28,413 bases of DNA from an uncultured virus (IMG/VR IMGVR_UViG_3300037067_011978) (taxonomy: Duplodnaviria > Heunggongvirae > Uroviricota > Caudoviricetes). Numbering within the stretch: the stretch's first letter is position 1; each line of letters begins with the position of its first letter. The stretch lies in IMG/VR virus record IMGVR_UViG_3300037067_011978; one strand, given 5' to 3'. This document shows, piece by piece, positions 11,920 to 24,713 of the stretch. A program made the translations under genes and the position numbers. The notes under the pieces were generated by a model. It was not told the origin of the DNA and ran no database searches. It worked only from the letters and a program-made list of their open reading frames with translations.

Positions 11920-12321
11920 TTATGTTTCTTGATCTGAAAAATAAACAAACCTAATATCAACTGGCGTATTATAAATACCATCATCAGGCTCTGGTATTGT
12001 TCTTAATGGACTATTTAATGACATTCTCGCAACAGTAAAATTATTATTCACTCCATACATTCCCGTTTCACTTGTACCAATAAAAACATGCATAACTTTT
12101 TTTGCTAAACTTTTACTTACCGAAATAGATGATGCTCGACAATTTAAAGAAAAAACTTCTGAATTAATTCCACTATATACATTATCGTCTATAGAAAAAT
12201 AATTAATGGAAGGAACTATTGTACCCCCTGGTCTCAACCCGCTATATATTCTATTGCTAACTATTGCGGTTATCGCCGAAGTGTTATTTAATATCCATCC
12301 AACATTCTGTTCACTTGTCAT
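11920..12321 (-). CDS. tail terminator / completion protein (DUF3168/gp17-like)
   Basis: AITAIVSNRIY...PGGTIVPSINY pattern; position before the major tail gene. Confidence 0.75.
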   Translation of the reverse strand: MTSEQNVGWILNNTSAITAIVSNRIYSGLRPGGTIVPSINYFSIDDNVYSGINSEVFSLNCRASSISVSKSLAKKVMHVFIGTSETGMYGVNNNFTVARMSLNSPLRTIPEPDDGIYNTPVDIRFVYFSDQET

Positions 12322-12458
12322 TTTTTCTTTTTACTCTTTTCTATCTTTTGATATTTAATTTTTCTGTCAATTCCCTCTTTTGATTTCTTATGTACTGTAT
12401 TTGGATTTTTCCAATGTCCATTATGGCCCGGCCTTCTTCCGCTTCCTTTACCTCCCAT
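12318..12458 (-). CDS. small basic protein, MGG-motif family copy 6 (46 aa, MGGKGSGRRPGHNGHWKNP...KSKKKK)
   Basis: Hand-translated; SD AAGGAG; stop overlaps the ATG of the next gene (ATGA). Confidence 0.75.
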   Translation of the reverse strand: MGGKGSGRRPGHNGHWKNPNTVHKKSKEGIDRKIKYQKIEKSKKKK

Positions 12459-12933
12459 TATTCTCTCCTTTATTTGCAATAAAAAATACATCTCTACTAT
12501 TTAGATATTCAGCAAAATAATTCTTACCATTTATTTTTATAATATTCAAAGCGTTTCCTTTTAACATATCCATTGCTGGTCTCATAAAAGCTTGAGCATT
12601 TGTTTTAACAGTCCCGTACTCCATATGTGGTCCATAAAAAACTAATGTACCAACTAAAGCTTCTAATATTCTCGGCTTATCTAATTTTATAAATCCATAT
12701 GGAGTCTTCCCTCCACCTTTTCCATAATTACTTGGATTCCCTAACTCGCTTCCTCTATCATACATTTGATAATTTATAGACGCGGCTAAATGCCCTGAAT
12801 CTCTTGGTGCTAATAAAACTGCATTACTTACCGCCGAAATTGCTAATTGTTCTACAGAAGCATTAGTCATTTCTGAACAAATACTTTTTACTTCATTCCC
12901 TCGCCATGTCATTTTAGTTTCAATTTTTATCAT
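12448..12933 (-). CDS. HK97 gp10-like neck/tail-completion protein
   Basis: APRDSGHLAASI and YGPHMEYGT...AQAFMRPA motifs. Confidence 0.9.
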   Translation of the reverse strand: MIKIETKMTWRGNEVKSICSEMTNASVEQLAISAVSNAVLLAPRDSGHLAASINYQMYDRGSELGNPSNYGKGGGKTPYGFIKLDKPRILEALVGTLVFYGPHMEYGTVKTNAQAFMRPAMDMLKGNALNIIKINGKNYFAEYLNSRDVFFIANKGENNGR

Positions 12934-13286
12934 GATATTCTTTCTAACCCTTGGGTAACAATTTCATTTAATTCTAGATAATTGTTTTGAAATCCAGAAA
13001 TATTATATGTTTCATTTTTATAACTAATGGTTTCCAAAACTGTTCCGCCACTAGCATCAGGCGAATTAAAATTATATGCACCATATTCAAAACATAATAT
13101 ATGTGTACTTGATAATGCATATTTATCAGAAATAAAACGATTTGATCCATTATTTTGCCATAATGCACATAAAGGAATAATAGTAGTTGAAGTCGTGCTC
13201 GAAAAACCACCCATGCCGTCATTGGTATCAATTCTTCTATTAATCGTAACGGCATTTTTTAAATTTAAACAATCTTTAAAAGCCAT
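12930..13286 (-). CDS. head-tail adaptor / head closure protein (SPP1 gp16-like)
   Basis: VTINRR..TNDGMGG motif; position. Confidence 0.75.
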   Translation of the reverse strand: MAFKDCLNLKNAVTINRRIDTNDGMGGFSSTTSTTIIPLCALWQNNGSNRFISDKYALSSTHILCFEYGAYNFNSPDASGGTVLETISYKNETYNISGFQNNYLELNEIVTQGLERIS

Positions 13287-13897
13287 CAGTTAAGCCTACA
13301 TAATCTATAAGGAATTAATTTGTCTAATATCGAAGTTGGATAACCAAAATTATCATTATCTACAGTGTAACTTTCTGACCATGGGCCTAATGATTTTGAC
13401 TTAATTCCTGGACCAACTTTTCCAATTCCAGTACTTGATCTAACTTCATAATCAAAATATGCCATTTCATAAGCGGCCATTTTTACATCTAAAGGCCAAT
13501 TCGCTAATGAAAATAAAATAATAGGGCCATCAGAATTATTAAAATCCTCTTTTATTACCGTCGCACTAGAAGCTATTATTGCAGTATTATCTGATAAACT
13601 ATATATTGATTTATATCCTTCATTTCTATAACTATTATATATAAATATTGGATCGCTTGCTTGAAATCCATAATCTTCCCAATGTTCAGAAGATGAATTT
13701 AAAACTATAGAATTATTACTTGGATAAAATTTACATGTTGATTCTAAAATAATACTATCAGAAACAAAATAATTATTTGTTATTATAGGTATTCTTGCTT
13801 CAATAGTATCTAATAGTTTTTTAGTTATAATAGTTCCTGTCGTTGCCGTTATTGAGGAATATATCGTACATTCTGTAGCCGAAAGTATTATGCTCAC
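13286..13897 (-). CDS. head-tail connector protein (gp6/gp15-like)
   Basis: PLDVKMAAYEM...GIKSKSLGPWSESY...LIPYR motif; GTG start abutting the previous stop. Confidence 0.8.
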   Translation of the reverse strand: MSIILSATECTIYSSITATTGTIITKKLLDTIEARIPIITNNYFVSDSIILESTCKFYPSNNSIVLNSSSEHWEDYGFQASDPIFIYNSYRNEGYKSIYSLSDNTAIIASSATVIKEDFNNSDGPIILFSLANWPLDVKMAAYEMAYFDYEVRSSTGIGKVGPGIKSKSLGPWSESYTVDNDNFGYPTSILDKLIPYRLCRLN

Positions 13898-14431
13898 TTA
13901 CCAATCCTGTTCATAAAATGATGTTCTAATAACAGTTCTTGTTGAAGCATTATCGGCGACAAACCGCAATAGATATTTAGTATTAGGAGCTAATATAGCT
14001 TCATTAACTTCGCCTGCAACATTTCCTACATTTGCTTTATTTGTTCCGGTGCTTCCCATTAAATAATATCTTAAAATCGTTCCTGAACTTGTATATGTTC
14101 CATTAACTACCGTTAAAGCACAAGCAACATTAGTACTAGTCGCATCATTATTATATTCAGTAATTACCGATGAACTAGAAGTAGTAGCATTTGGATTTAC
14201 AGAAAAATAAGCCATACCAGAATTATCAGTAGCTATTTCACCTACCATATGAACTTTCTTTCCGCCAGTTGTCATTAAAATATTTATAGCAGAAGCCGCT
14301 CCTATTTTTTCATAATAAGAAGTAAAAAAATGATGCCCTTCGTGAATCTCATGATGGATAATGTCAATTGTAGGAATGCTTCCTGAATCATCTAAAGGAT
14401 TATTTATTGTAAAGGATTTTGTTACACCCAT
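13898..14431 (-). CDS. hypothetical virion-associated protein (177 aa)
   Basis: In the head cluster; HHEIHEGHHF and ILAPNTKYLLRF segments; function not recognised. Confidence 0.6.
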   Translation of the reverse strand: MGVTKSFTINNPLDDSGSIPTIDIIHHEIHEGHHFFTSYYEKIGAASAINILMTTGGKKVHMVGEIATDNSGMAYFSVNPNATTSSSSVITEYNNDATSTNVACALTVVNGTYTSSGTILRYYLMGSTGTNKANVGNVAGEVNEAILAPNTKYLLRFVADNASTRTVIRTSFYEQDW

Positions 14432-14449
14432 ATTTTATTCCTTTTTAAT

Positions 14450-14507
14450 TAAATTAAAGGGAAGAGAATTTTTATTTTTACATAAAGTTAGATTCATTCT
14501 CTTCCCT
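14450..14507 (-). terminator. terminator-like hairpin after capsid and decoration genes
   Basis: 12-bp inverted repeat AGGGAAGAGAAT (14458-14469)/ATTCTCTTCCCT (14496-14507) with a 26-nt loop and a U-rich tail on the minus strand. Confidence 0.55.
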
Positions 14508-14524
14508 CTTTTTTTAATTATCTA

Positions 14525-14914
14525 TCATTCCCAACTATTCGGTAAAATAGTTGCCGTCCATGTAGTAGGACCAGTTCCGGTTTGAGTAAATACTAAAGCA
14601 TTGTCATCTGTTAAGAACCTTGCGGATTCTAAACCTTGCCCACCTATAATTACAGTGGACTCCGTTGCGATGGTAATTGATTTAGCGCCTTGACCCTTAT
14701 CAGAATAATCATCAGCGGCGGCAAGTGAAAGCACAACAGATTCGGTAGAGTTTGCGTTAGCTACGGTAATAACTAATCGTTCAGGTTTTAAAATACTTTG
14801 CGCCGTAGTAGCAGTAATGGTCATAGTTTCGCTAGACGCAATAGTTCCAGAAGCCGCAGTAATAGCAACACCAGTTAAAACAGGCGTAGTAGGTTTTAAA
14901 GTTCCATTAGCCAT
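14525..14914 (-). CDS. putative capsid decoration/cement protein (129 aa)
   Basis: Immediately after the capsid gene; SD AGGAGG; Thr/Ala-rich beta composition. Confidence 0.6.
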   Translation of the reverse strand: MANGTLKPTTPVLTGVAITAASGTIASSETMTITATTAQSILKPERLVITVANANSTESVVLSLAAADDYSDKGQGAKSITIATESTVIIGGQGLESARFLTDDNALVFTQTGTGPTTWTATILPNSWE

Positions 14915-14932
14915 ATTATTGTCCTCCTAACC

Positions 14933-15802
14933 TTAGCTCGCAGCTTCGGCAAGATATAAAGTGAATAAAGCCTCAGACTGAACAGCCTTAGCACCATATA
15001 CATATAAACCGCGAGCCGCATTAGCAAAAGTGGTTTGGAGACGAAGGGCTTCGATGGTATTTACCTGACCAACATACGCAATCGCTTTTCCACCACCACA
15101 CATAATACGATACTGAGTACCGTCATTAGAAACGTTATTTGATTCAAAAATATCAAAACCAAAAGCCTTAGTAACGAAACCATTAAGTAATTCACGATCA
15201 GTAGGAACTTTGGGAACTGCGTTGTAAGCAATTCCGCCAACTTCAGCAAGGGTCAATTTCTGAGTAACCCACGGAGGGACTACAATCCAGCGCCCAGGCT
15301 TAGGCACATTCGCTTCATCAAGACGCCTTGAGGCATAAGATAAAGTTTCAATGACATTGCCAGAGCTTACAGAAAGTGAAGTTCCACTAACCCCAGTGGT
15401 AGTAGATGTTCCCCCAGCAACACCTGCTTGAGCATAAAGACCAGCAATAAATTGATCGACGGTATCACCAATCGCATAAGCTGCCTCTTCCATTGCCCCA
15501 TCCATGAGCTTAGGATTGCTCTGGGCATTATTAACATCATCAATTTTAAAATGGAACTCGGTAGCTTGGTCGACAAGAAGGGTTTTCTGTGCCGAGTCAA
15601 GTTCGGAATACGTTAACGTTGCACCCTTAGTATAAGCAGTGGCGGTAACGGGGCCAAGTTCATTGATATGAATCTGATCACCATAATTAAGTAACTCACC
15701 TTCATATTCGCGATTGGTAATATTACCAAACACGAATGATTTCCTAAGCCTAGTATAAAGCCTCGCGCTCCATAACTCAGGAATAAAATTTTCTACTCCC
15801 AT
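14933..15802 (-). CDS. major capsid protein (HK97 fold, P22-coat-like family)
   Basis: FIPELWSARL...NREYEGE...GDQIHI, LDEANVPKPGRWIVVPP, RGLYVYGAK motifs. Confidence 0.95.
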   Translation of the reverse strand: MGVENFIPELWSARLYTRLRKSFVFGNITNREYEGELLNYGDQIHINELGPVTATAYTKGATLTYSELDSAQKTLLVDQATEFHFKIDDVNNAQSNPKLMDGAMEEAAYAIGDTVDQFIAGLYAQAGVAGGTSTTTGVSGTSLSVSSGNVIETLSYASRRLDEANVPKPGRWIVVPPWVTQKLTLAEVGGIAYNAVPKVPTDRELLNGFVTKAFGFDIFESNNVSNDGTQYRIMCGGGKAIAYVGQVNTIEALRLQTTFANAARGLYVYGAKAVQSEALFTLYLAEAAS

Positions 15803-15822
15803 ACTATTTCTCCTTTAATTTA

Positions 15823-16512
15823 TTAACCAACCACGAGATTATCTATCTCGCCGGTTTCTGCCATTCTATTTTGTTCAGCACGTGGTAATTTTTGAAATTG
15901 GCTAAACGTCATTTTTGAATTATCTTTATTTTCAGGAACTTGTGGTTTATAAGCAGTTGAAGCAACGAAATCATTAATAGCCTTTTTTGCTATATCATCT
16001 TTTAGTTTCGTAAATACTCCAGCGGCACTTTTAAAATGGTCTACAGAAGGGAAAGGAAAATTTTCAACTAATTCTTTAGGCACATTAAGGTCATTTGCAG
16101 TCATTAAAATTGCGTTACGAAGTTCTTTCGCTTCCATGTCCTTTTGCATCTTTTCCATGTTGTTGGTGACTTCGCGCAATAGCCTTTGTTCCTCAGTTTC
16201 TTCAGGATGTAATTTCCTAATACCTTCATTCACCCCAGCCTTAATTCTAGCTTCAATAACCGATGCTTGTTTTTCATCATGCGTTTTAATAGCCTGAGTA
16301 GCATAACGATCAAGCTTAGGTTGTAAAACAAATTTACCTTCAGGAGTTTCCAAATACGCATTAACAGTTTCAGTATTCAAATCTTTTTCCACGGCAAACG
16401 TAGCAACGTATTCTGATACATCTGGCCGTTCCTTATTAGATTCGATAAATGCCTTAACCTGTTCAATGGTAATTATCTTCTCTTCACTTTCTAATACCGT
16501 TTCCATTCCCAT
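15823..16512 (-). CDS. capsid scaffolding protein (DUF4355-like)
   Basis: Charged helical protein before the capsid gene; HPEETEEQR segment. Confidence 0.8.
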   Translation of the reverse strand: MGMETVLESEEKIITIEQVKAFIESNKERPDVSEYVATFAVEKDLNTETVNAYLETPEGKFVLQPKLDRYATQAIKTHDEKQASVIEARIKAGVNEGIRKLHPEETEEQRLLREVTNNMEKMQKDMEAKELRNAILMTANDLNVPKELVENFPFPSVDHFKSAAGVFTKLKDDIAKKAINDFVASTAYKPQVPENKDNSKMTFSQFQKLPRAEQNRMAETGEIDNLVVG

Positions 16513-16844
16513 TATCTTTTCTCCTTAGATTTTTTGGCGGATTTCTTTACAGACTTCTTAACCAAATTCTTAGTAGATTTTTCTACCTTATTATTTTTAT
16601 CGGTTATTAATTTCTTAGGCCGTCCCCGTCCTCGTTTTTCAATAACCGTTACATTGGGGGAATTAACCGAAACATTTTTTTGAATTACATTTTCTTTTAC
16701 TTTTACAATTCCCTTAACCGGGAAATTTTTCGGTTGTGGAACTTGGATTTTATTTACAGTAGGTTCAACAGTATTCCCTCTATTGTGCAAGGACTCCTGT
16801 CTATTCTCCCGCGCATCCAATCTCCGTTGCCTAGCTCGATTCAT
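16512..16844 (-). CDS. highly basic protein with AT-hook-like motif (110 aa)
   Basis: KRGRGRPKK and Lys-rich tail; SD AAGGAG; TAATG coupling to the scaffold gene. Confidence 0.75.
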   Translation of the reverse strand: MNRARQRRLDARENRQESLHNRGNTVEPTVNKIQVPQPKNFPVKGIVKVKENVIQKNVSVNSPNVTVIEKRGRGRPKKLITDKNNKVEKSTKNLVKKSVKKSAKKSKEKR

Positions 16845-16881
16845 TTTCTGATGGTCTCCTTTTCTAAATCATTTAGATAAT

Positions 16882-16937
16882 AAAAAAGGCGGCTAGAAAC
16901 CTATTTCTAGGAATCTTAGCCGCCTACCGTTTTCGGT
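16882..16937 (-). terminator. structured leader with intrinsic terminator upstream of the capsid operon
   Basis: Minus strand: ACCG-AAAA-CGGT hairpin, then AGGCGGCTA...CCTA-GAAA-TAGG...TAGCCGCCT followed by a T run. Confidence 0.75.
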
Positions 16938-16960
16938 TTGACGCTTAATTTAACTTACAT

Positions 16961-16990
16961 TAAGTATTATATAACATATATACAAAAAAA
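16961..16990 (-). promoter_or_regulatory. putative late promoter (-10 TATAAT at 16971-16966)
   Basis: TATATAATACTTA, identical to the 13-mer at 25985-25997; intergenic. Confidence 0.6.
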
Positions 16991-17080
16991 ACTAGTGGCT
17001 AATTCAATAGCTCATATATCCTTTTTAGATTGCCTTCCCAATAATACTTTCTATATTACTTTCACTAAAAATAGGAAACT

Positions 17081-17131
17081 TTACTTGAGTAAATAATTTA
17101 ATACTTGTTGTTCTAACTTGGATAGATTCAT
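17081..17131 (-). pseudogene. 16-codon duplicate of the 5' end of the MuF/gp7 gene (MNLSKLEQQVLNYLLK*)
   Basis: 43/48 nt identical to 20155-20202 (MQLSKLEQQALNYLLK). Confidence 0.8.
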
Positions 17132-17135
17132 ATTA

Positions 17136-17306
17136 TTACCTTATCTTATTTCCAGTTGCCGGATCAATTCCTTGTTTCCGTAAGTCTTTTCTGTATTGTT
17201 TGTCAAGTTTTTTATTGCTTCGGATTTGCTTTTTATCTGTTTTACTTAGTCCCTTATTCTTTTTATTCCCGCTACCTTTCTTTCTACCTGATCCTGGTCC
17301 ACCCAT
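17136..17306 (-). CDS. small basic protein, MGG-motif family copy 5 (56 aa, MGGPGSGRKKGSGNKKNKGLSK...GNKIR)
   Basis: Hand-translated; SD AAAGGAG. Confidence 0.85.
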   Translation of the reverse strand: MGGPGSGRKKGSGNKKNKGLSKTDKKQIRSNKKLDKQYRKDLRKQGIDPATGNKIR

Positions 17307-17307
17307 A

Positions 17308-17487
17308 TTATTCTCCTTTCTTCTTTAATTGAAAATGGTCTTTATCCTTAGAACCTTTTTCTACATCAACAATTTGCGAATTACAAATAGTAAAGACAAT
17401 ACTCACTTCACCAAAATCTTTTTTTTCTATTTCATTCTTTACCCAAGATAAATAATTTTCAATGCTTGTTCCAGTTGTGCTTACCAT
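17308..17487 (-). CDS. DUF2292/YezD-like small protein (59 aa)
   Basis: Hand-translated MVSTTGTSIENYLSWVKNEIEKKDFGEVSIVFTICNSQIVDVEKGSKD...; FGEVSI...QIVDVEK resembles the family pattern; TAATG coupling. Confidence 0.6.
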   Translation of the reverse strand: MVSTTGTSIENYLSWVKNEIEKKDFGEVSIVFTICNSQIVDVEKGSKDKDHFQLKKKGE

Positions 17488-17726
17488 TATATTTTCCTTA
17501 TCAATAATTCTTTATTTTCTATTTCACTTATTATAGTAAAATCTTTTACTAAACAATAACTAAATCTAACATTTGAATCTTCTAATATTCTCATTCCAGG
17601 AAAATTATTAATATCACTTTTTATCTTTTCTTTTACTAAATCAAAACTTTCACAATCAAATCCATAAATAGAAGTATTTAATGACACTGTCCCATTCATT
17701 AAACTTTCTTTTAATATAAAGATCAT
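17487..17726 (-). CDS. hypothetical protein (79 aa)
   Basis: ATGA-coupled within the operon. Confidence 0.65.
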   Translation of the reverse strand: MIFILKESLMNGTVSLNTSIYGFDCESFDLVKEKIKSDINNFPGMRILEDSNVRFSYCLVKDFTIISEIENKELLIRKI

Positions 17727-17938
17727 TTCGTATTTTCCTTAATGACTAATTCTTTTAACAATTCCCAATTTTCCCTTACTTCTTTATCTTTATATGTAAC
17801 CTTTGTATCAAGATCACTTTCCTTACTTATAATTATTTGTTTTTCATTTTTAATTATATCTAATTCATTTTTTAAGTTTTTAAATTCTTTTTCTAATTCA
17901 GAAATTTTTGCAATTTGTTTTTCTATTTTATTATTCAT
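17723..17938 (-). CDS. hypothetical coiled-coil protein (71 aa)
   Basis: SD AAGGA; ATGA coupling at both ends. Confidence 0.7.
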   Translation of the reverse strand: MNNKIEKQIAKISELEKEFKNLKNELDIIKNEKQIIISKESDLDTKVTYKDKEVRENWELLKELVIKENTK

Positions 17939-18081
17939 TTCTTTTCCTTATTAAATAATAATTGTAAAAATATCTGAACCTTTTTTAATAATACCCAAAA
18001 TCTATTTATACTTACTTTTACATAAAAACTATCATTTTTTGGATAAATTTTCCCGGCTTTTATATACCAAGGCAACTTCAT
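17935..18081 (-). CDS. hypothetical protein (48 aa, [17 protein letters not shown]...)
   Basis: Hand-translated; fills the gap exactly with ATGA overlaps at both ends. Confidence 0.6.
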
Positions 18082-18224
18082 TTATTTTTGCCTTTCTTCT
18101 TTTTACTTTTACCGGCTTTACTCATTGCAATTGCTACAGCTTGTTTTTGTGGCTTCCCAGATTTCATTTCACTTTTTATGTTTTCTGAAATTACTTTTTT
18201 ACTAGTCCCTTTTTTCAATGGCAT
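18078..18224 (-). CDS. small basic phage protein (48 aa, [48 protein letters not shown])
   Basis: Hand-translated; SD AAAGGAG; resembles a recurring small phage protein type (MPLKKG...QAVAIA), recalled rather than searched. Confidence 0.8.
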
Positions 18225-18480
18225 TATTTTCTCCTTTCTTATTTAATTCTTCTTTTATGTAATAATCTAATTCTCCTAAATCAATAATTCCGAATCTATC
18301 TACTAATATTTTAGCTAACCCTGACCATGTCCAAGTTTCATCATCAAATAAAACATAAAATATTGATCCTATAGTATTAGGCATATTTGATTTTAAAAAC
18401 TCATCTGAATCTGATGTTTGATTCTGATATTTTTCTTTTAACATTATTTTTTTCTTATAAACATTCTTTGTAATAATCAA
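18202..18480 (-). CDS. hypothetical protein (up to 92 aa; start may be the internal MLKEKY)
   Basis: Fills the gap between the lipase and MPLKK genes. Confidence 0.6.
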
Positions 18481-19042
18481 TATAATGATATTTAGGCAAA
18501 GCTATAATTTTTCTTTTACCTAATTTCACAATATTCCCTATATGCCTAAATCCAAAAATCCATAATGGTAACTTAGTAATTATATCCCCTTTTGTTTGAT
18601 AATTAAATACATTATTAAATCTATTCTTAAATGTTTTATTAGGTAACCAATATATTCTAGGGCTTCCAAATATATAACAATAAACATTAAAATATGTTTT
18701 CATTAAATCTTCATAATATAAAACAGATAAAGCCGCGCCTTGTGAATAACCAGATATAATTATTTTATCAATCTCATATCCTAAATGCTCAATAATATAA
18801 TGGATATTCTTTTTAACTATTAAATAATTTTCTAAAAATCCTAAATGAACATATTCATTATTATGTTTCTTTATCCAAAATTTAAAATTCTGTATCCAAT
18901 CTCTTTTAGAAACTGTGCCTTGAAAGTAAATATATAAAATCCTTCCTTCCCTTAATACTTTAAATTGTACATCATTTTTATCACTGCTTACCCACGGGCC
19001 TTTGATAGAATCATTAAATAATTGTTTTACATTTTCTTGCAT
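18455..19042 (-). CDS. class 3 lipase-like alpha/beta hydrolase
   Basis: FQGT, VHLGF, GYSQG (GxSxG), FGSPR, DIITKLP, FRHIG and a C-terminal His. Confidence 0.9.
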   Translation of the reverse strand: MQENVKQLFNDSIKGPWVSSDKNDVQFKVLREGRILYIYFQGTVSKRDWIQNFKFWIKKHNNEYVHLGFLENYLIVKKNIHYIIEHLGYEIDKIIISGYSQGAALSVLYYEDLMKTYFNVYCYIFGSPRIYWLPNKTFKNRFNNVFNYQTKGDIITKLPLWIFGFRHIGNIVKLGKRKIIALPKYHYIDYYKECL

Positions 19043-19194
19043 TATCTATCTTCTTTAAAAGCCATTCCTTCACCAGATAATCTTCTTTTTCTTGCTCTAA
19101 TTTTTGTTGCTTGACTACGCCCATCATGTAACATTAATTTCTTTTTCTTGCTGTTACCTGATCCTTTCTTTCTTCCACTTCCTGGTCCACCCAT
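19042..19194 (-). CDS. small basic protein, MGG-motif family copy 4 (50 aa, MGGPGSGRKKGSGNSKKKKLMLHDG...KEDR)
   Basis: Hand-translated; SD TAAGGAG; TAATG coupling to the lipase gene. Confidence 0.85.
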   Translation of the reverse strand: MGGPGSGRKKGSGNSKKKKLMLHDGRSQATKIRARKRRLSGEGMAFKEDR

Positions 19195-19218
19195 AATAAT
19201 CTCCTTATTATACTTCGT

Positions 19219-20202
19219 TTATAGCCAATCCGGATGATATTGCTTTGCGTAATCCAAATAATTTTGATACTTAATAATCCCTTCTTCTCTTGTTCTCATT
19301 AATTGTGGGCTATATCCTTCAATATCCATTCTTTCTGTACATCGTTCGTTGCATCGTTGCGCGGCACTTAGATTAGGATCACCTGGCCATCTTGCATATT
19401 CATTGGTTGATGACAAATAAAATAATCCATCTTTATCTTTCTTTTGCCCATCCATTATTTTATGGTTTGCTAATGAAGTATCTTTATATCTTTTACCTTT
19501 TTTACTAAATCTAACTTGTGGCCTAACCTTATTATCTTTTGCAGTACTCCAAACAATATCGCCAATAATTCCTTTTTCTTTCGCTTGCATATAAACATAA
19601 TCTTGACCAGCATTAATAGCGGATTGGCCTTCCGTTCTAACAGTTAACATGCATCGATTATATGTGGCAGTTACGGCTTTATTTAAATCAGCGGCCATTT
19701 GACTATATGATTTCCCTAATGACAAACCATTTAGTAATGCTGAACGGATAGCTTTTTTTGCGTTTATAGAATAATTCTTTAAAGCCTCTTGAAGTTCTAT
19801 GTTCTTAGGATTAGTTATATCAAAAGCTTGTAATAATTCTTTCGTGTTAACTAATCCCCATGACAATCTCATTCCCGTTGAATTATCAATTGCCCAAGCA
19901 TAATGAAAAAAGCTTTCATTGAATTGTTCAGGTAATAATTTTTTAATGGTTTTAATATTTGCTTTCAATGCAGGATCAAGTTTTTTTAATATTATTTCTT
20001 CCATAGTAGAATATTTATTATATTTAGTCATTTCAGCTTTTGTTAATTTACCATTAATAGAATACTTTTTATATATTTTAGTCATTTCTCCATAGATAGA
20101 AGTTAGAGCATCAAGCAATTGTTTTTGTATTTGTTTAGAATACATTGCCTCGCGCTTGAGTAAATAATTTAATGCTTGTTGTTCTAACTTAGATAATTGC
20201 AT
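19219..20202 (-). CDS. head morphogenesis / minor capsid protein (SPP1 gp7/MuF family)
   Basis: VRTEGQ, WSTAKDNKVR, HKIMDGQ, WPGDPNLSAAQRCNERC motifs. Confidence 0.9.
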   Translation of the reverse strand: MQLSKLEQQALNYLLKREAMYSKQIQKQLLDALTSIYGEMTKIYKKYSINGKLTKAEMTKYNKYSTMEEIILKKLDPALKANIKTIKKLLPEQFNESFFHYAWAIDNSTGMRLSWGLVNTKELLQAFDITNPKNIELQEALKNYSINAKKAIRSALLNGLSLGKSYSQMAADLNKAVTATYNRCMLTVRTEGQSAINAGQDYVYMQAKEKGIIGDIVWSTAKDNKVRPQVRFSKKGKRYKDTSLANHKIMDGQKKDKDGLFYLSSTNEYARWPGDPNLSAAQRCNERCTERMDIEGYSPQLMRTREEGIIKYQNYLDYAKQYHPDWL

Positions 20203-20215
20203 TTAATTACTTCTA

Positions 20216-20374
20216 TTAAGGCATTTGCCTTGGTTTCTTCATCATGGCTTTTGCTCTTTTATAATTTTTACCTACTAATCTAGGATCAGCGCCAGAATTT
20301 GCTGTTCTGCCGGATTTGGCCACTTTGCTTTTCCCGCTTGATCCTTTCTTTCTTCCACTTCCTGGTCCACCCAT
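20216..20374 (-). CDS. small basic protein, MGG-motif family copy 3 (52 aa, MGGPGSGRKKGSSGKSKVAKSG...PRQMP)
   Basis: Hand-translated; SD TAAGGAG. Confidence 0.85.
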   Translation of the reverse strand: MGGPGSGRKKGSSGKSKVAKSGRTANSGADPRLVGKNYKRAKAMMKKPRQMP

Positions 20375-20384
20375 GTTATTCTCC

Positions 20385-20894
20385 TTATAATAGCTTTGCT
20401 TTTGGATTCAATATCTGAATCATACTTTTCATCTTATCACTCTTAATTATAACATCATTTCCTAATTTTATTCTAGCTATATCATAATCGCTAAATCCGC
20501 ATCTAATCAAATCACTAATAAACTCATTGTTTTTCATTTCTAAATTTCTAAATAAATGAATGCTTACAGAATTTTTATCTTTCAATTCAAAATAATCCAA
20601 TTTATTGTTAAACAAATGTATTATTGCGAAAGCATCTTTATTTAATAATATCTTACAATTAACATTCAACAATAAATCAAAAGCGGCAGATGACATTTCC
20701 CAATTACAAACTATTTCAAAACGATTTTCAAACCTATTTATATAATCATAAAGATCATTAGTATCAGTGCAAGTTCCACCGCTAGAAGACATATATAAAA
20801 CAATATTTTCATTAGAATCTATTTTATCAATATCATTTAATAATGTTTTTACAGAAGTATTGTTTATTTCACCTTCAAATTTTATTGCTTTCAT
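20385..20894 (-). CDS. ClpP/S14-like serine protease (169 aa)
   Basis: FEGEIN, LYMSSSGG, MSSAAF (candidate Ser) and IIH (candidate His) follow the ClpP layout. Confidence 0.7.
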   Translation of the reverse strand: MKAIKFEGEINNTSVKTLLNDIDKIDSNENIVLYMSSSGGTCTDTNDLYDYINRFENRFEIVCNWEMSSAAFDLLLNVNCKILLNKDAFAIIHLFNNKLDYFELKDKNSVSIHLFRNLEMKNNEFISDLIRCGFSDYDIARIKLGNDVIIKSDKMKSMIQILNPKAKLL

Positions 20895-22415
20895 TTATTC
20901 CTCATTATTATCTTCTATATTTTCATCTTCATCTTCATCAAAACCTTCATTAAGAGAAGTCCCATCTATGCCTACCATATCATTTCTTTCTTTTTCTTCC
21001 TCGGCCAATTCATCTTCAACATCAGAGACCATATCTTCTGGCATTTGTGAAATAATCATTTTTCTACTAAATCCGGCAGTAGTTAATGTATAAGCCAAAG
21101 TTGCATACATATTTTTATCTAATGGAAGATTTCTTTTATGCATAATATTAATCATCATACTAAAATCAGAATCCCTAGGAATAGCGTTCATTTTAATTAA
21201 ATAATCTGTTATCATTTCTCCACGCCTAATTAATGCTACATCGAAATCAGCTTCATCGCTTGACACTAAGTTTTCAAAATCAAATAATAATCTATCAATA
21301 GCCGCACCACTCAATGCACCAGTAAGCAAAGTAAAATCAGGAACATGAGATTGTAAATGGATTTCTTCTTTTAATTTCCTAGCCATATATTCAATAAATT
21401 GTGTAGGGATATCTTTAGTAAGAAAATGAATATCAGAATCTTTATCTAATCCTTCAAATATTCTCCTTCGCTTTACTTTTTCTAATGCGGCGGCGGCTTT
21501 AACTGGGTCTTTCTTATCAATAGGATTGGTTAATGATATATTTTTCATTATTAAATACGCAAAAGCGAATCTATCAAACTCATTCATACTATCAGACATT
21601 AATACATCATAAGCATCGATAAGACTTAAAACATTTTCAATAATACTTTGCATTTCATCACCACGATAAAAAGCTATTACGGGAACATCATTAAAATAAT
21701 TAGGCATTACTTTGCCATCGGTTTTCAATTTCCATTCATTAACATTGTTATTTGTTTCTTCCCTATAACGGATATATGGAATCATATTATCTTTATAATA
21801 TACTTCAACTTTATATTCATTTTTATTCATGGGATAAAATCTAATAGCTATGATTATTTTAGGTTCAGGATCATAATTATATAAAACTACCATTTGTCTA
21901 GGGTCAACGGTAAAAAACTTAGGAACGGCTTTATTGGTTAATTCTTTCTTATCATATTCAGAATCAATATATAATAGTTCGTAATTAAATCCGAATATTC
22001 CTAGATTTCTTCCTGCTCTATTTGTTTTAATATGTTCATTGTTATATTTATAAATATTCTGTATTTCATTACAAAATTTCTTTTCTACAGGATCAGTTTT
22101 TTCATTACTTAAATCATTTTCTGTATTTTCTATTTCTGTATTAGTCTTTTTTACATTAGGTTTATAAGTAATATATTTAGGACGATATCCATACCCTGTA
22201 TATGTAGTAACTATTTTTCTTCCATAAGACGCTATAACTTTATTATCAGGATTATTATTATCAGGTATTTTCCTTTCAGTTATCTTTACATTCTTACCTT
22301 TATAATATTCCCATAAATCATCTAAATGCTTAACAGTATTTATTTCATAATCAGAAATATATTTTAATATTTCTTCGTTTGTTAGAATCGCTTTATTTGT
22401 CTTTTGTAAAGTCAT
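20895..22415 (-). CDS. portal protein, SPP1 gp6-like
   Basis: LWEYYKGKN, NKVIASYGRKIV, LIDAYDVLMSDSMNEFDRFAFAYL, LSGAAI motifs; acidic tail. Confidence 0.95.
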   Translation of the reverse strand: MTLQKTNKAILTNEEILKYISDYEINTVKHLDDLWEYYKGKNVKITERKIPDNNNPDNKVIASYGRKIVTTYTGYGYRPKYITYKPNVKKTNTEIENTENDLSNEKTDPVEKKFCNEIQNIYKYNNEHIKTNRAGRNLGIFGFNYELLYIDSEYDKKELTNKAVPKFFTVDPRQMVVLYNYDPEPKIIIAIRFYPMNKNEYKVEVYYKDNMIPYIRYREETNNNVNEWKLKTDGKVMPNYFNDVPVIAFYRGDEMQSIIENVLSLIDAYDVLMSDSMNEFDRFAFAYLIMKNISLTNPIDKKDPVKAAAALEKVKRRRIFEGLDKDSDIHFLTKDIPTQFIEYMARKLKEEIHLQSHVPDFTLLTGALSGAAIDRLLFDFENLVSSDEADFDVALIRRGEMITDYLIKMNAIPRDSDFSMMINIMHKRNLPLDKNMYATLAYTLTTAGFSRKMIISQMPEDMVSDVEDELAEEEKERNDMVGIDGTSLNEGFDEDEDENIEDNNEE

Positions 22416-22539
22416 TTAATTTCTCCTCAATTATTCTATTATTTATATAATTTTCTAATACTTCAATTGATTGTTCAAAATCTAAATCATTTCTAATTTC
22501 CATAACTAATTTTATAATATCTTTATGATTATCTATCAT
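22393..22539 (-). CDS. hypothetical protein (48 aa, MIDNHKDIIKLVME...)
   Basis: Hand-translated; TAATG coupling to the upstream gene. Confidence 0.55.
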   Translation of the reverse strand: MIDNHKDIIKLVMEIRNDLDFEQSIEVLENYINNRIIEEKLNDFTKDK

Positions 22540-22874
22540 TAAACTATTTTATTATTCAATTGTTTAATGTTAACCATATCAGCACAATATTTTTCAAATG
22601 TAGCGCCTTTTGATTTTTCCCAATCATCTAACATATAAATATATTTGCATTCCATTAAATATTTTATATCTTCTTTTAAATAAGCATCATATTTTTCTTC
22701 TTCATTCATATTATCCCAATTGTCATATGCAAATGATATATTATTACCAATATCAACAGGACTAATAGGATGATACCCTATAGAATAAAGATATTGGAAA
22801 GCATTTTCAAAAGATTCTTTATTAAGATTAATATAACCTTTCATTGGCCCTGAAATATAAACCTTTTCTTTCAT
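22539..22874 (-). CDS. DUF4406-like (nucleoside deoxyribosyltransferase-fold) protein
   Basis: VYISGPM...IYMLDDWEKSKGATFE motif. Confidence 0.85.
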   Translation of the reverse strand: MKEKVYISGPMKGYINLNKESFENAFQYLYSIGYHPISPVDIGNNISFAYDNWDNMNEEEKYDAYLKEDIKYLMECKYIYMLDDWEKSKGATFEKYCADMVNIKQLNNKIV

Positions 22875-22880
22875 TGATAC

Positions 22881-23036
22881 TTACTCCTTTATAATTGGAT
22901 CATCATAAAAGTGGCCTTCTAAAAATCTTTTTAAAGTAATATATATTCTATGAAACAACCTATAACCACTTGCACCTTTCCAACATCTATATAAATATTT
23001 CAATTCATTTACTTTTTCATCATAATAATATCTCAT
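22881..23036 (-). CDS. hypothetical protein (51 aa from MRYYYD)
   Basis: The ATG right after the MGG copy 2 stop is more plausible than the track start at 23081. Confidence 0.55.
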   Translation of the reverse strand: MRYYYDEKVNELKYLYRCWKGASGYRLFHRIYITLKRFLEGHFYDDPIIKE

Positions 23037-23037
23037 A

Positions 23038-23202
23038 TTATTTTTTCTTAGGTTTATATCCAGGCGTTCCAAATTTATCATGGTCTATTTTGTGAGTTTT
23101 TAAATATTCTTTATCAAGTTTTGCACTTTTTTGTTTTGCGGAGAGTGGTTTACCTTTTTTAGAAACTGATCCTTTCTTCCTGCCGCTTCCTGGTCCACCC
23201 AT
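23038..23202 (-). CDS. small basic protein, MGG-motif family copy 2 (54 aa, MGGPGSGRKKGSVSKKGKPLS...KPKKK)
   Basis: SD AAAGGAG before ATG 23202; the track start at 23241 overlaps terL and is less plausible. Confidence 0.85.
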   Translation of the reverse strand: MGGPGSGRKKGSVSKKGKPLSAKQKSAKLDKEYLKTHKIDHDKFGTPGYKPKKK

Positions 23203-23213
23203 AATTTGCTCCT

Positions 23214-24500
23214 TTATAATCCCAAATCTGATAATGTCCAATCATTAGTTTCACATACCTTATTTTGATTTGACCAAATATATTCAGAACCATATCTAAG
23301 TGCCGCAATTCCGTCATCATTAATTTCTACAAAATCTTCCGTTACTGTTCCATCTTTATCTTCTTTACGTTTGAATGATGCTATTTCACTTGCTAACTCT
23401 GGACATTTATTCCCATCAATATACATTTTTATTCCTACTAAATATTCAACTCCAAACCGTAATGATCCATCTCCTTTTTTTGCCGCTTCTACTTTATAAC
23501 CTTTATCTTTCCATTCTTTTATTTTATCAGGATTAGCAGAATCAGCAGTCATATGCATTTCATATAATTTATCACCAAAATAGTTTTCTGCATCTTCTAT
23601 AAATTGTGCATTAGTTCTATTCTTTTCATGCAATTCATCAAATACATATAAAGCAATTTCTTTTTCATTCTTATAATCTTGCTGAAATCCCGCTCGCTCT
23701 ATTGCTTGAGCGTGAACGAATCCAAAGTCTAATCCTTGAAATACATTTTCTAAATTATCTTCTGTATATGGGAAGTTTTCATTTATAATTTCATAGTTAC
23801 TAAATACAACATTGCCATAAATACCCCAATTACCTAACACATAAACATCATAGAAATATTTATCCGTAATATTCTCTAATCGTTTAATAGTATCTTCGTC
23901 TAAATGTTCGTTATTCTTATATGTAGAATGATGCGTTATGCAATCAGCTTCTTTCCTGTCAAAAAATCGTTTCTTTATCCAATGCTTAATAGAAATAGGG
24001 TTTAATGTTAGAGTAATTGTTTTCTTGTGTAATGTCTCACCACGAAGACGTAAATCTAATTGATTGAAATCTGATTCTGATATTTCTGAAGCTTCCTCAA
24101 CCCATATATCTGTAATGCCATGAATTGATTTTAGCTTTTCTACATCATCAAGGCCAGTAAATATAATTGAATTATCATTTGCCAAACACGTAATCAATAA
24201 TTCAGAGCTATTATATTTGAAAAGCTCCCGCATATTAGAATCATTAATAATAGAAACCATTAAATCAAATACAGAGTGCCTAAGTGTTTTAGCAACTTTT
24301 CTAACAACTAATATCTTATGGCCTTTTTCTCTAATGCAACGATAAATATATTTTTGGCCAGTAGAATAAGATTTTGAAGATGAAGCTCCACCTACAAGAA
24401 CTTGAATACGGCTTTTATCTTTGAATAAAGGTATAAAATGTTTATTTATCTTTTTACCAAAGCCGCGAAGATCAATTGTAGGTGAAGCTATATCAGACAT
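23214..24500 (-). CDS. terL: terminase large subunit, PBSX family
   Basis: GGASSSKS Walker A, WVEEA Walker B, GLDDVEKLKSI, LNP, GLDFG nuclease motif, DDGIAALRY. Confidence 0.95.
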   Translation of the reverse strand: MSDIASPTIDLRGFGKKINKHFIPLFKDKSRIQVLVGGASSSKSYSTGQKYIYRCIREKGHKILVVRKVAKTLRHSVFDLMVSIINDSNMRELFKYNSSELLITCLANDNSIIFTGLDDVEKLKSIHGITDIWVEEASEISESDFNQLDLRLRGETLHKKTITLTLNPISIKHWIKKRFFDRKEADCITHHSTYKNNEHLDEDTIKRLENITDKYFYDVYVLGNWGIYGNVVFSNYEIINENFPYTEDNLENVFQGLDFGFVHAQAIERAGFQQDYKNEKEIALYVFDELHEKNRTNAQFIEDAENYFGDKLYEMHMTADSANPDKIKEWKDKGYKVEAAKKGDGSLRFGVEYLVGIKMYIDGNKCPELASEIASFKRKEDKDGTVTEDFVEINDDGIAALRYGSEYIWSNQNKVCETNDWTLSDLGL

Positions 24501-24710
24501 TTATTTCTTCTCACGTCTTCCTTGAACTATATCGCCCTTTTTATTTGTATACATATAACTTTCATATTGCTTTCTATTTTTATTTATCCTTCCCGTGCTA
24601 CTATGCGTTTTAATATAAGTTCCCACACCTTCTTTTTTACTTTTATATTTTCTTAATTTTGGGGAAGAAATCGAAGACCCCTTCTTTCGTCCTGATCCTG
24701 GTCCGCCCAT
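24501..24710 (-). CDS. small basic protein, MGG-motif family copy 1 (69 aa), between terS and terL
   Basis: In the ORF track; SD AAGGAG; abuts the terL start. Confidence 0.85.
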   Translation of the reverse strand: MGGPGSGRKKGSSISSPKLRKYKSKKEGVGTYIKTHSSTGRINKNRKQYESYMYTNKKGDIVQGRREKK

Positions 24711-24713
24711 AGT

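What the first reader, a model, noticed from the sequence alone, without database searches (positions are those of the whole stretch)
12318..24710. Six dispersed small basic genes share an N-terminal MGG(P/K)GSGR(K/R) tag fused to variable cationic tails
Seen: minus-strand ORFs at 24501-24710, 23038-23202, 20216-20374, 19042-19194, 17136-17306 and 12318-12458 (46-69 aa), each with a GGAG Shine-Dalgarno. Five start MGGPGSGRKKGS and one MGGKGSGRRPG. Codons vary synonymously across copies (Ser6 is TCA, AGC or AGT; Arg8 is CGA, AGG or AGA; Gly codons vary), which points to selection on the peptide and not just a DNA repeat. After about residue 12 the tails are Lys/Arg-rich and mostly unalignable, although copies 2 and 5 share KLDKxYxK...ID. 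They follow terS, terL, the ClpP-like gene, the MuF gene, the DUF2292-like gene and the gp10-like gene. Four are missing from the ORF track. Established precedent: T4 internal proteins use a short shared N-terminal capsid-targeting sequence. Inference: a tag-plus-variable-cargo system, for example peptides loaded into the prohead to condense DNA or be injected as effectors or anti-defence decoys, or substrates of a common processing or binding partner.
Basis: partly seen in the sequence, partly recalled or inferred. Interest (0 to 1): 0.92.

Follow-up and report, generated by a model that had tools for sequence, protein, structure and literature searches.

The report
Shared address tag on basic phage peptides
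An uncultured tailed phage and its relatives scatter up to six tiny, very basic genes among their head-building genes, all starting with the same twelve amino acids, which looks like an undescribed address label for proteins that travel with the phage DNA.

Summary
Six minus-strand ORFs (46-69 aa) start MGG[P/K]GSGR behind an AAGGAG ribosome site (6 matches, 0 in 100 shuffles). The five P-type tags differ at up to 10 of 36 bases with no amino-acid change.

The family is clade-wide. The tag pattern gave 41 IMG/VR loci (39 distinct peptides), and 64 small unnamed proteins reached E<=0.001 among 1.84 billion representatives. Three complete relatives carry 4-5 copies each, at varying junctions between terS, terL, portal, MuF, scaffold and capsid genes.

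Tails are lysine-rich (median net charge +15) and mostly unrelated (108 tails, 73 clusters). Between close relatives a tail is replaced while both flanks stay 95-100% identical.

GGPGSGR[H/K/R] also marks domain starts, 2-5 times per protein, in large proteins of unrelated phages. These carry polyvalent or head-packaged-type domains, and one has an XkdF prohead-protease domain. The tag also heads a probable small terminase.

Best reading (about 0.4): head-module cargo peptides that are enclosed with, and bind, the packaged DNA. The tag would serve as a common docking or DNA-anchoring N-terminus. No packaging, cleavage or binding was shown. The ClpP-like gene is not required across the family. 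No paper with the motif was found in two full-text searches. An earlier scan note (e1-5872231) describes an analogous tag on other DNA.

The parts
24501..24710 (-). Tag peptide 1 (69 aa, MGGPGSGRKKGS + basic tail, pI 10.6, net +16). It lies between terS and terL. AAGGAG sits 6 nt before the ATG. The ORF is in frame with terS behind its TAA stop.
   Evidence: In relative L059 the tail is replaced while the flanks stay 95-100% identical.
23038..23202 (-). Tag peptide 2 (54 aa, MGGPGSGRKKGS..., net +13), directly after terL. Its tail shares KLDKxY.K..ID with peptide 5.
20216..20374 (-). Tag peptide 3 (52 aa, pI 11.9, net +14), after the ClpP-like gene and before MuF.
19042..19194 (-). Tag peptide 4 (50 aa, net +12), after MuF. 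Its stop overlaps the start of the Lipase_3-like gene. Its first 36 nt are identical to peptide 3.
17136..17306 (-). Tag peptide 5 (56 aa, net +15), after a 59-aa gene and followed by a 290-nt gap before the basic 110-aa gene and the scaffold gene. Relative P0030, listed at 73% identity over 66% of the query, keeps the tail.
12318..12458 (-). Tag peptide 6 (46 aa, divergent tag MGGKGSGRRPGH, net +13). It overlaps the 3' end of the Neck1 gene, and its stop overlaps the next gene's ATG.
   Evidence: Relatives L062 and L063 carry a tag gene about 2-4 kb downstream of the MCP gene too.
12448..25235 (-). Host module. Genes: terS 24714-25235, terL 23214-24500, portal 20895-22415, ClpP-like 20385-20894, MuF 19219-20202, Lipase_3-like 18455-19042, scaffold 15823-16512, major capsid protein 14933-15802, Neck1 12448-12933.
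   Evidence: PHROGs and Pfam

Best explanation
The six ORFs are real genes of a clade-wide family of small, largely disordered, lysine-rich proteins. They are encoded, and presumably made, together with the head proteins.

Each has three parts:
- an invariant N-terminal address, which after removal of the initiator Met would read GGPGSGRKKGS;
- a flexible Ser/Gly/Lys stretch;
- a fast-exchanging basic cargo.

Most likely the address docks every family member to one conserved partner of the packaging or procapsid-interior machinery, or directly to the DNA backbone. The peptides would then end up inside the capsid with the genome. There the Lys-rich tails would act as protein counter-ions for the packed DNA and could leave with it at infection, as T4 internal proteins do.

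In unrelated phages the same address marks the start of each module in large multi-domain head-type proteins. It follows a residue that is constant within a protein but differs between proteins. This suggests that a free GGPGSGR N-terminus, produced either by Met removal or by cleavage, is the functional unit.

Shown: the genes, selection on the peptide, tag/cargo modularity, cassette exchange, head-module context, and the tag's occurrence in head-type polyproteins.

Inferred: translation, Met removal, cleavage at the junctions, docking, encapsidation and DNA binding.
For: (1) Selection on the peptide. There are 0 amino-acid changes against up to 10 of 36 nt changes between window copies; chance is 1e-5 at 8 changes. 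Across 59 distinct peptides Ser6 uses AGT 22, AGC 16, TCA 19 and TCG 2. 57 of 59 have a Shine-Dalgarno core.

(2) A real family.
- 41 IMG/VR loci gave 39 distinct peptides.
- 64 proteins reached E<=1 among 746 candidates, all unnamed or 'hypothetical'.
- 75 proteins reached E<=0.001 among 1.84e9 representatives. 64 of them are 42-114 aa and match from residue 1.

(3) Head context. Complete relatives G001, G002 and G004 carry 4, 5 and 5 pattern matches (G004: four genes plus one 12-aa remnant). All of these except one gene in G002 and the remnant in G004 lie at varying junctions between terS, terL, portal, MuF, scaffold and MCP.

(4) Cargo properties. Tails are 21.7% K, 7% R and 5.7% D+E, with median length 64 aa and median net charge +15. 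The 17 larger module proteins have K+R 0.11 and D+E 0.13.

(5) Modularity. 108 tails fall into 73 clusters, 63 of them singletons. The largest family (21 members) is tag + variable linker + conserved module. AF2 gives the tag and linker pLDDT 52-57 and three helices pLDDT about 90.

(6) Cassette exchange. Against L059 (MCP 89% identical), the terL 5' end matches at 191/201. The last ~90 nt of terS and the SD match at ~100%. The tag matches at 27/36 with the peptide unchanged. The tail matches at 74/171.

(7) The tag on head-type proteins elsewhere.
- P0065 has 5 tags plus InPase and hits to minor-head and DarB-like PHROGs.
- Tag-bearing ORFs hit Nudix, PNK, ParB-like and minor-head families in 5 of 16 scanned.
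- P0123 has 2 tags ahead of Peptidase_S78_2/XkdF, E 9e-30.
- Tag proteins sit after the portal or a head-tail adaptor in L129, L153, L158 and L161.

(8) Junction grammar. In 13 of 15 multi-tag proteins the residue before every tag is identical within the protein (E, K, A, F or N); 0 of 10,000 shuffles reach this. P3 is hydrophobic in 32 of 44 junctions. 40 of 42 distinct GGPGSGRKKG sites in IMG/VR have ATG directly in front.

(9) Precedent. T-even internal proteins are described as a highly diverse set sharing only a capsid targeting sequence. About 1000 molecules are packed, and their lysines contact DNA phosphates (PMC3012670, passages read). Genes encoded among terminase, portal and capsid genes are argued to be head-packaged (PMC9503650, passages read).
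Against: - There is no direct evidence of translation, packaging, cleavage or binding.
- The tag is hydrophilic and glycine-rich, unlike an amphipathic targeting helix.
- It also heads a 211-238-aa family whose best structural match is the P22 small terminase (Z 7.3, rmsd 4.0, 104 residues aligned). Terminase is not a virion component. This fits a DNA-binding arm better than a capsid address.
- One G002 copy lies outside the head module, beside nuclease/ATPase-like genes.
- No dedicated prohead protease was found in the head modules of the three complete relatives. The ClpP-like gene is absent from all three. T4-style tag removal is therefore unsupported for this clade.
- The DNA under the tails is A-rich enough that the other two frames would also be basic (K+R 0.27-0.33). 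Composition alone is therefore weak evidence.
- The constant P1 within multi-tag proteins may partly reflect internal duplication of units rather than a protease specificity (one search shows duplicated contexts).
- Most small-peptide records come from one phage clade, so their counts are not independent.
Confidence: 0.4

Rival explanations
1. The peptides are cytoplasmic DNA-binding cofactors and are not packaged. The tag would be an AT-hook- or histone-tail-like arm that grips DNA, as on the N-terminus of a small terminase. The peptides would coat or condense replicated phage DNA, or help terminase engage it, and stay outside the capsid.
For: - The tag heads a probable terS family.
- The window's own terS has a similar G-K-G-R-P-K-N-S-G stretch before its helix-turn-helix region.
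- A 110-aa neighbour carries KRGRGRPKK.
- Tails are polycationic.
- The tag occurs in phages with different portal families, phrog_64 and phrog_12. It spans GC contents of 30% to 67%. This fits a universal partner such as DNA.
- One copy in G002 lies beside nuclease/ATPase-like genes.
Against: - The tag lacks the R-G-R-P core of an AT-hook.
- A DNA anchor has no need to be exactly N-terminal, yet 40 of 42 sites are.
- The terS assignment rests on Z 7.3 for a helical model, with no family hit.
- The tag's presence on XkdF-protease and polyvalent head-type proteins points to the capsid interior.
Confidence: 0.2
2. The peptides are injected anti-defence or take-over effectors. The tag loads them into the head, and the hypervariable tails are the business end, diversifying in an arms race with host defences as T4 IPI* does against GmrSD.
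For: - Tails are extremely diverse and are replaced as cassettes between phages that are 87-89% identical in MCP.
- Copy number and positions vary between relatives.
- T-even internal proteins are described as diverse defence proteins sharing only the CTS (PMC3012670).
- The tag is shared with DarB-like/polyvalent proteins.
Against: - Most tails are low-complexity polycations, which suit a composition-dependent role better than specific inhibition.
- No tail matched any family in Pfam or PHROGs.
- No defence-related neighbour or target is known, and the host is unknown.
Confidence: 0.15
3. The tag is only a processing or modification site. It would be the primed side of a protease junction or a substrate motif for an enzyme, with no addressing role. 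The small genes would be free-standing versions of polyprotein modules that kept the junction sequence.
For: - The tag recurs 2-5 times at module boundaries of large proteins.
- P1 is constant within a protein and P3 is hydrophobic.
- Two tags sit in the N-terminal part of an XkdF protease-domain protein.
Against: - Conservation lies mainly on the C-terminal side of the junction (8 residues against 1-3). This is unusual for a mere cleavage site.
- In the window's clade nothing needs to be cleaved, yet the tag is under strong purifying selection.
- No protease was found in 3 complete relatives.
Confidence: 0.12
4. The genes are selfish or near-neutral gene cassettes. They would spread through head operons by recombination at the conserved SD-plus-tag sequence, or serve as translational coupling spacers, and their products would have no virion function.
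For: - Positions between conserved genes vary.
- In G004 a tag gene was copied together with a 48-residue MuF N-terminal fragment (75% identical) into the terS-terL junction.
- G004 also holds a 12-aa remnant copy.
- Stops and starts overlap the neighbouring genes.
Against: - The tag is conserved as a peptide, not as DNA. Up to 10 of 36 nt differ and Ser codons switch between TCN and AGY.
- Some tail families are conserved over many homologues.
- The tag recurs on functional domains in unrelated phages.
Confidence: 0.08

Closest known systems
Phage T4 internal proteins (IPI, IPII, IPIII and their diverse T-even counterparts) with the capsid targeting sequence (CTS)
   Same: Both have several small basic proteins per genome, otherwise unrelated, that share only a short N-terminal sequence. 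Both sets are diverse and exchangeable, and both are lysine-rich. T4's proteins contact DNA phosphates (PMC3012670, passages).
   Different: - The tag was not compared with the T4 CTS sequence here. As recalled, the CTS is not glycine-rich.
- T4's CTS is removed by the prohead protease after loading onto a scaffolding core. This clade has a P22-coat-type capsid with a separate scaffold, and no dedicated protease in 3 complete relatives.
- Here the genes are scattered between head genes, not grouped.
- Packaging is unproven.
Polyvalent (multi-domain, virion-delivered) proteins of phages and conjugative elements (Iyer, Burroughs, Anand, de Souza, Aravind 2017, PMC5512222)
   Same: The same GGPGSGR[H/K/R] motif sits before domains typical of that class: InPase, DarB-like, ParB-like, Nudix and PNK. 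The class is proposed to be packaged and injected.
   Different: The window's proteins are single 46-69-aa units, not multi-domain chains. In the passages I searched, that paper gave no occurrence of 'glycine-rich' or 'linker' and only an unrelated GXGU motif. I did not read the whole text or its supplements.
AT-hook (HMGA-type) and histone-tail-like basic arms
   Same: These are short glycine/arginine/lysine motifs in disordered basic proteins that bind DNA without a fold. A canonical KRGRGRPKK occurs in a neighbouring gene at 16512-16844.
   Different: The tag has G-S-G-R-K-K-G and lacks the R-G-R-P core. AT-hooks are not restricted to the N-terminus. The resemblance to histone H4/H2A tails is recalled, not tested.
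   Same: The architecture and reading are the same: a shared N-terminal peptide on several small, very basic virion-operon proteins, compared with the T4 CTS.
   Different: The tag sequence and phage clade differ. That tag is followed by a putative lysine cut site. It is an unchecked AI note and was not tested here.
Adenovirus core peptides (pVII, mu) and protamine-like DNA condensers
   Same: These are small polycationic peptides enclosed with viral dsDNA as counter-ions (recalled knowledge).
   Different: They are eukaryotic-virus proteins, arginine-rich, and made from precursors by the viral protease. There is no sequence relation, and the comparison was not tested here.

Membership tests
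T4-type internal proteins with capsid targeting sequence | A short N-terminal sequence shared by several otherwise unrelated small basic proteins of one phage | tested here: met
   Six copies in the window and 1-5 in relatives. 108 tails fall into 73 clusters.
T4-type internal proteins with capsid targeting sequence | Sequence similarity of the tag to the T4 CTS | not tested
   No T4 CTS sequence was fetched. PHROGs gave no family for the six peptides beyond one weak hit to an unannotated family (E 0.15).
T4-type internal proteins with capsid targeting sequence | Removal of the tag by the prohead protease after loading | tested here: inconclusive
   The ClpP-like gene is absent in 3 of 3 complete relatives. 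No dedicated protease hit appeared among the 41 head-module ORFs scanned. Cleavage itself is not testable here.
T4-type internal proteins with capsid targeting sequence | Physical presence inside the capsid, bound to DNA | not testable with these tools
   The phage is uncultured. No cultured phage with the tag was found.
AT-hook DNA-binding motif | Core Arg-Gly-Arg-Pro flanked by basic residues | tested here: not met
   The tag reads G-S-G-R-K-K-G-S, with no RGRP in any of 28 aligned members.
Polyvalent proteins (PMC5512222) | Two to fifteen domains in one polypeptide | tested here: not met
   The window peptides are 46-69 aa with no domain hit. Only the tag is shared with such proteins.
Small terminase N-terminal DNA-binding arm | The tag lies at the N-terminus of a protein with a small-terminase fold | tested here: inconclusive
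   For the 231-aa family the best structural match is P22 terS 3p9a_A (Z 7.3, rmsd 4.0, 104 aligned). Pfam and PHROGs gave no hit. hhalign against the clade's terS gave probability 0.4.
Protease cleavage junction of a phage polyprotein | A recurrent motif at module boundaries with a conserved residue before the cut | tested here: inconclusive
   There are 2-5 tags per protein. P1 is identical within 13 of 15 proteins, and P3 is hydrophobic in 32 of 44 junctions. No cleavage data exist.

The most novel reading that the evidence does not exclude
GGPGSGR[K/H/R] is a portable, lineage-crossing 'new N-terminus' label of tailed phages. Any polypeptide that begins with it would be taken into the capsid with the DNA. 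The label can be exposed by removal of the initiator Met, as in this clade's free-standing mini-genes. It can also be exposed by cleavage after a phage-specific residue in polyproteins. Phages would thus carry interchangeable cargo with a single 7-12-residue handle that needs no dedicated protease: DNA counter-ion peptides here, and enzymes elsewhere.
Probability: 0.2. Interest if true: 0.85.

Novelty: new variant of a known kind. Interest (0 to 1): 0.66.

Why it matters
If the tag is a loading or DNA-anchoring label, three things follow.
- Dozens of unannotated mini-genes in phage head operons would be explained.
- It would show that the T4 'internal protein plus address' strategy exists in a different chemical form in siphovirus-type phages that apparently lack a dedicated protease.
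- It would supply a very short handle for putting cargo into phage capsids.

The junction grammar in multi-domain head-type proteins would also give a testable rule for where these giant proteins are cut. Independently of function, the mini-genes are systematically missed or left nameless by annotation. All 64 database relatives are unnamed or 'hypothetical'.

Tried and rejected
- Complex prediction of peptide 5 with capsid protein, scaffold and MuF (alignments A2-A5): no answer, score 0.00 against a mark of 0.32, controls not run. This is no evidence either way.
- Sequencing runs: no RNA holder listed. Two DNA holders may be the source samples.
- Pfam and PHROGs on the six peptides: nothing below E 0.01.
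- ESM Atlas: no usable hit.
- Cultured phages. Megablast of the module found no match. tblastn of peptide 5, P0009 and P0080 found none or only chance-level hits. InPase-domain homologues in Bacillus phage Dartukuta and Escherichia phage kaset lack the motif.
- Genome-contig scan: 2 hits. One is an out-of-frame chance match in a Smithella MAG. The other is the terS-like gene of an Olsenella MAG prophage. The host of the main clade stays unknown.
- Foldseek of the conserved 3-helix tail module: nothing at E<=0.001.
- Foldseek of the 231-aa model: nothing at E<=0.001.
- Promoter/terminator scan: counts at shuffle level (74 vs 81 promoter-like, 5 vs 4.4 terminator-like).
- The idea that peptides are read-through extensions of the upstream gene: only copy 1 is in frame with its upstream gene (from the coordinates). 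Rejected as a general rule.
- The idea that the tag is a DNA-level repeat: rejected on synonymous variation.
- Dependence on the ClpP-like gene: rejected for the family.
- Literature: 'GGPGSGR' gave 0 papers. 'GPGSGR' gave 1 paper on an unrelated subject by its title and abstract, not opened.

Full report
WHAT IS THERE

The window is part of a 63.5-kb IMG/VR virus record (GC 30%, estimated 84% complete). Its minus strand carries a siphovirus-type structural module (PHROGs/Pfam):
- terS 24714-25235
- terL 23214-24500
- portal 20895-22415
- a 169-aa protein with a partial CLP_protease match, 20385-20894
- MuF 19219-20202
- a Lipase_3-like protein 18455-19042
- scaffold 15823-16512
- a P22-coat-type major capsid protein 14933-15802
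- Neck1 12448-12933
- tape measure 7400-10699

Six small ORFs sit between these genes. All start MGG[P/K]GSGR, and all lie behind an invariant AAGGAG. A degenerate pattern for the first eight codons finds these six sites and nothing else in the window, against 0 in 100 shuffles. It finds nothing else in the whole record either.

Apart from AAGGAG, nucleotide conservation starts at the ATG and ends after about 36 bases.

The five P-type tags differ at up to 10 of 36 bases without one amino-acid change. In a simulation, 8 random changes preserve the peptide in 1e-5 of trials. The peptide, not the DNA, is what is kept. The products have pI 10.3-11.9 and net charge +12 to +16.

THE FAMILY

Three searches recovered relatives:
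- The exact-tag DNA pattern recovers 41 loci in IMG/VR, with 39 distinct peptides.
- A profile of 28 members (A2) finds 64 proteins at E<=1 in the 5.8-billion set, all unnamed or 'hypothetical'.
- The same profile finds 75 at E<=0.001 among 1.84 billion representatives.

Three relatives estimated complete (two of them with direct terminal repeats) give 4, 5 and 5 pattern matches. All of these except one gene in G002 and a 12-aa remnant in G004 lie at different junctions between terS, terL, portal, MuF, scaffold and capsid genes. Other fragments carry 2-4.

Among 27 loci fetched through the capsid protein, 5 of the 11 with capsid identity of 58% or more have tag genes. Many of these loci are short fragments. 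None of the 16 with identity of 43% or less has one.

The nearest cultured phages have about 40% capsid identity. None was found to carry the tag. The host is unknown.

ANATOMY OF A MEMBER

Across 59 distinct peptides:
- Position 4, which the search pattern left free, is Pro in 58.
- Ser6 uses both codon families (AGY 38, TCN 21).
- 57 of 59 have a Shine-Dalgarno core.
- Tails are 21.7% Lys, 7% Arg and 5.7% Asp+Glu.
- Median length is 64 aa and median net charge is +15.

Positions 1-3 and 5-8 were fixed by the search pattern, so their invariance in this set is partly by construction. The synonymous codon spread is not.

The 108 tails of at least 23 residues fall into 73 clusters, 63 of them singletons. 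Some tails are nevertheless conserved. The largest cluster (21 members) shows tag, then an S/G/K linker of variable length, then a conserved 40-residue module. AF2 models that module as three short helices at pLDDT about 90, while the tag and linker stay at 52-57. Foldseek found no known fold for it.

One caveat applies to composition. The tail DNA is so A-rich that the other two frames would also be basic.

CASSETTE BEHAVIOUR

Compared with a relative whose capsid protein is 89% identical:
- the terL start is 95% identical;
- the last ~90 nt of terS plus the ribosome site are ~100% identical;
- the tag differs at 9 of 36 bases with the peptide unchanged;
- the tail is unrelated (43% identity).

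In G004, a tag gene together with a 48-residue fragment of the MuF N-terminus (75% identical) has been copied into the terS-terL junction. A 12-codon remnant copy lies elsewhere in that genome. The units are gained, lost and replaced quickly.

THE SAME TAG ELSEWHERE

Large proteins carry the tag internally. The 'longer' search and the representative search found proteins of 241-1077 aa with 2-5 internal copies of GGPGSGR[H/K/R/P]. A scan for A-GGPGSGRH in IMG/VR gave 35 loci and 33 distinct in-frame instances. The unforced position P3 was L, I, V, M or F in 29 of 32. A few instances in GC-rich contigs are probably off-frame noise.

Where domains could be named they are of the head-packaged or polyvalent kind:
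- InPase with minor-head and DarB-like PHROGs;
- Nudix, polynucleotide kinase and ParB-like (5 of 16 ORFs had any hit);
- in P0123, two tags ahead of a Peptidase_S78_2/XkdF prohead-protease domain (E 9e-30).

In a different phage group (portal phrog_12), tag-bearing proteins of 106-206 aa follow the portal or a head-tail adaptor in L129, L153, L158 and L161.

In 13 of 15 multi-tag proteins the residue before every tag is the same within the protein (E, K, A, F or N) but differs between proteins. This occurred in 0 of 10,000 shuffles. The pattern looks like polyprotein junctions. Internal duplication of units may contribute to it.

In the small-gene clade that preceding position is the initiator Met. 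40 of 42 distinct GGPGSGRKKG sites in IMG/VR have ATG directly in front. Removal of Met before Gly is expected from general knowledge of methionine aminopeptidase. Both routes would then yield the same free N-terminus.

A COMPLICATION

A 211-238-aa family starts MGGPGSGRKKGSKNRPGTR in 6 of its 7 members and includes a copy in an Olsenella MAG prophage. It has no family hit. Its confident core (residues ~40-135) matches the P22 small terminase best in an all-against-representatives structural search: Z 7.3, rmsd 4.0, 104 residues aligned, with the next row at Z 5.7. For a helical model this is suggestive, not proof.

If it is a terS, the tag sits on a DNA-binding protein that is not part of the virion. 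The window's own terS has a similar GKGRPKNSG stretch.

MECHANISM

I commit, at about 0.4, to head-associated cargo peptides. They would be made with the head proteins and docked by the common N-terminus to a conserved partner, either a packaging or procapsid component or the DNA backbone itself. They would be enclosed with the genome, and their Lys-rich tails would serve as counter-ions.

The precedent is T4. Its diverse internal proteins share only a capsid targeting sequence, about 1000 molecules are packed, and lysines contact DNA phosphates (PMC3012670, passages read). The contextual argument that genes among terminase, portal and capsid genes are head-packaged is made in PMC9503650 (passages read).

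The family does not depend on the ClpP-like gene, which is absent from 3 of 3 complete relatives. No dedicated protease appeared in their head modules. T4-style tag removal is therefore unsupported.

Rivals, with my odds:
- non-packaged DNA-binding cofactors (0.2);
- injected anti-defence effectors, a sub-case of packaging (0.15);
- a mere processing or modification site (0.12);
- selfish or neutral cassettes (0.08).

NOVELTY

Full-text searches for the motif found no paper on it ('GGPGSGR' 0 papers; 'GPGSGR' 1 paper on an unrelated subject by its title and abstract). My term search of the polyvalent-protein paper (glycine-rich, linker, cleav, GxG and two others) turned up no mention of it. 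I read neither the whole text nor its supplements.

It is unchecked and was not tested here.

I class the finding as a new variant of a known kind: an internal-protein address system. Its tag chemistry differs, it apparently needs no protease, and the tag has an unexpectedly wide second life at domain starts of head-type polyproteins.

Noticed in passing
window 16512-16844 (-): A 110-aa very basic protein (pI 11.3, net +23) with a canonical AT-hook-like KRGRGRPKK. Its N-terminus (RQR[RK]LDAR..RQESL) is conserved just upstream of the scaffold gene in the relatives (L050, L053, L057, L058). No family hit.
   Followed up: partly
window 18078-18224 (-): Another small basic protein (48 aa, net +14) of the unannotated family phrog_2423 (E 3e-21). 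Related MPLTKKG... genes occur in G001 and G004. The head module therefore holds at least three kinds of small polycations.
   Followed up: partly
window 18455-19042 (-): A class-3 lipase/esterase-like alpha/beta hydrolase (Pfam Lipase_3, E 9.7e-18) sits inside the head module right after MuF and a tag peptide. A homologue is at the same place in G001 (L050:9020-9619). It may be a packaged enzyme.
   Followed up: partly
window 20385-20894 (-): A ClpP-like 169-aa gene (only residues 11-75 match CLP_protease) is present in this phage and in G010. It is absent from the three complete relatives, so it is an accessory element of the head module.
   Followed up: yes
L053:6339-8813 (G004): The large terminase of relative G004 is 825 aa instead of about 420. 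The terminase PHROG matches resume at residue ~449, suggesting an inserted element, possibly an intein or a fused domain.
   Followed up: no
L053:5970-6173 and L167 (G004): A 48-residue fragment of the MuF N-terminus (75% identical) is duplicated between two tag genes at the terS-terL junction. A 12-codon remnant, MGGQGSGREKGSG*, lies elsewhere in the genome.
   Followed up: yes
L130:4493-6202 and L130:9627-11180: In a 55% GC phage that also has GGPGSGR proteins, two large neighbouring proteins begin with a different shared motif after a short hydrophobic stretch: K-G-N-P-x-H-x-E-H-G-[RK]-F. This may be a second N-terminal label of the same kind.
   Followed up: no
L129, L130, L132, L134, L161, L162; P0080, P0088: Several modules that follow the tag share a pattern like ...L..xG[YF]K[YFR].. 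and then H/Y-rich strands. From memory this resembles HicA-type small domains. Not tested.
   Followed up: no
window 22539-22874 (-): A nucleoside 2-deoxyribosyltransferase-like gene (phrog_355, E 1.4e-22) lies between terL and portal. Related genes are near terS in G002, G004 and G007.
   Followed up: no
window 24708-24716: Tag peptide 1 is in the same reading frame as terS, separated only by TAA and one codon. The other copies checked (2 and 3) are not in frame with their upstream genes, so this is probably chance.
   Followed up: partly
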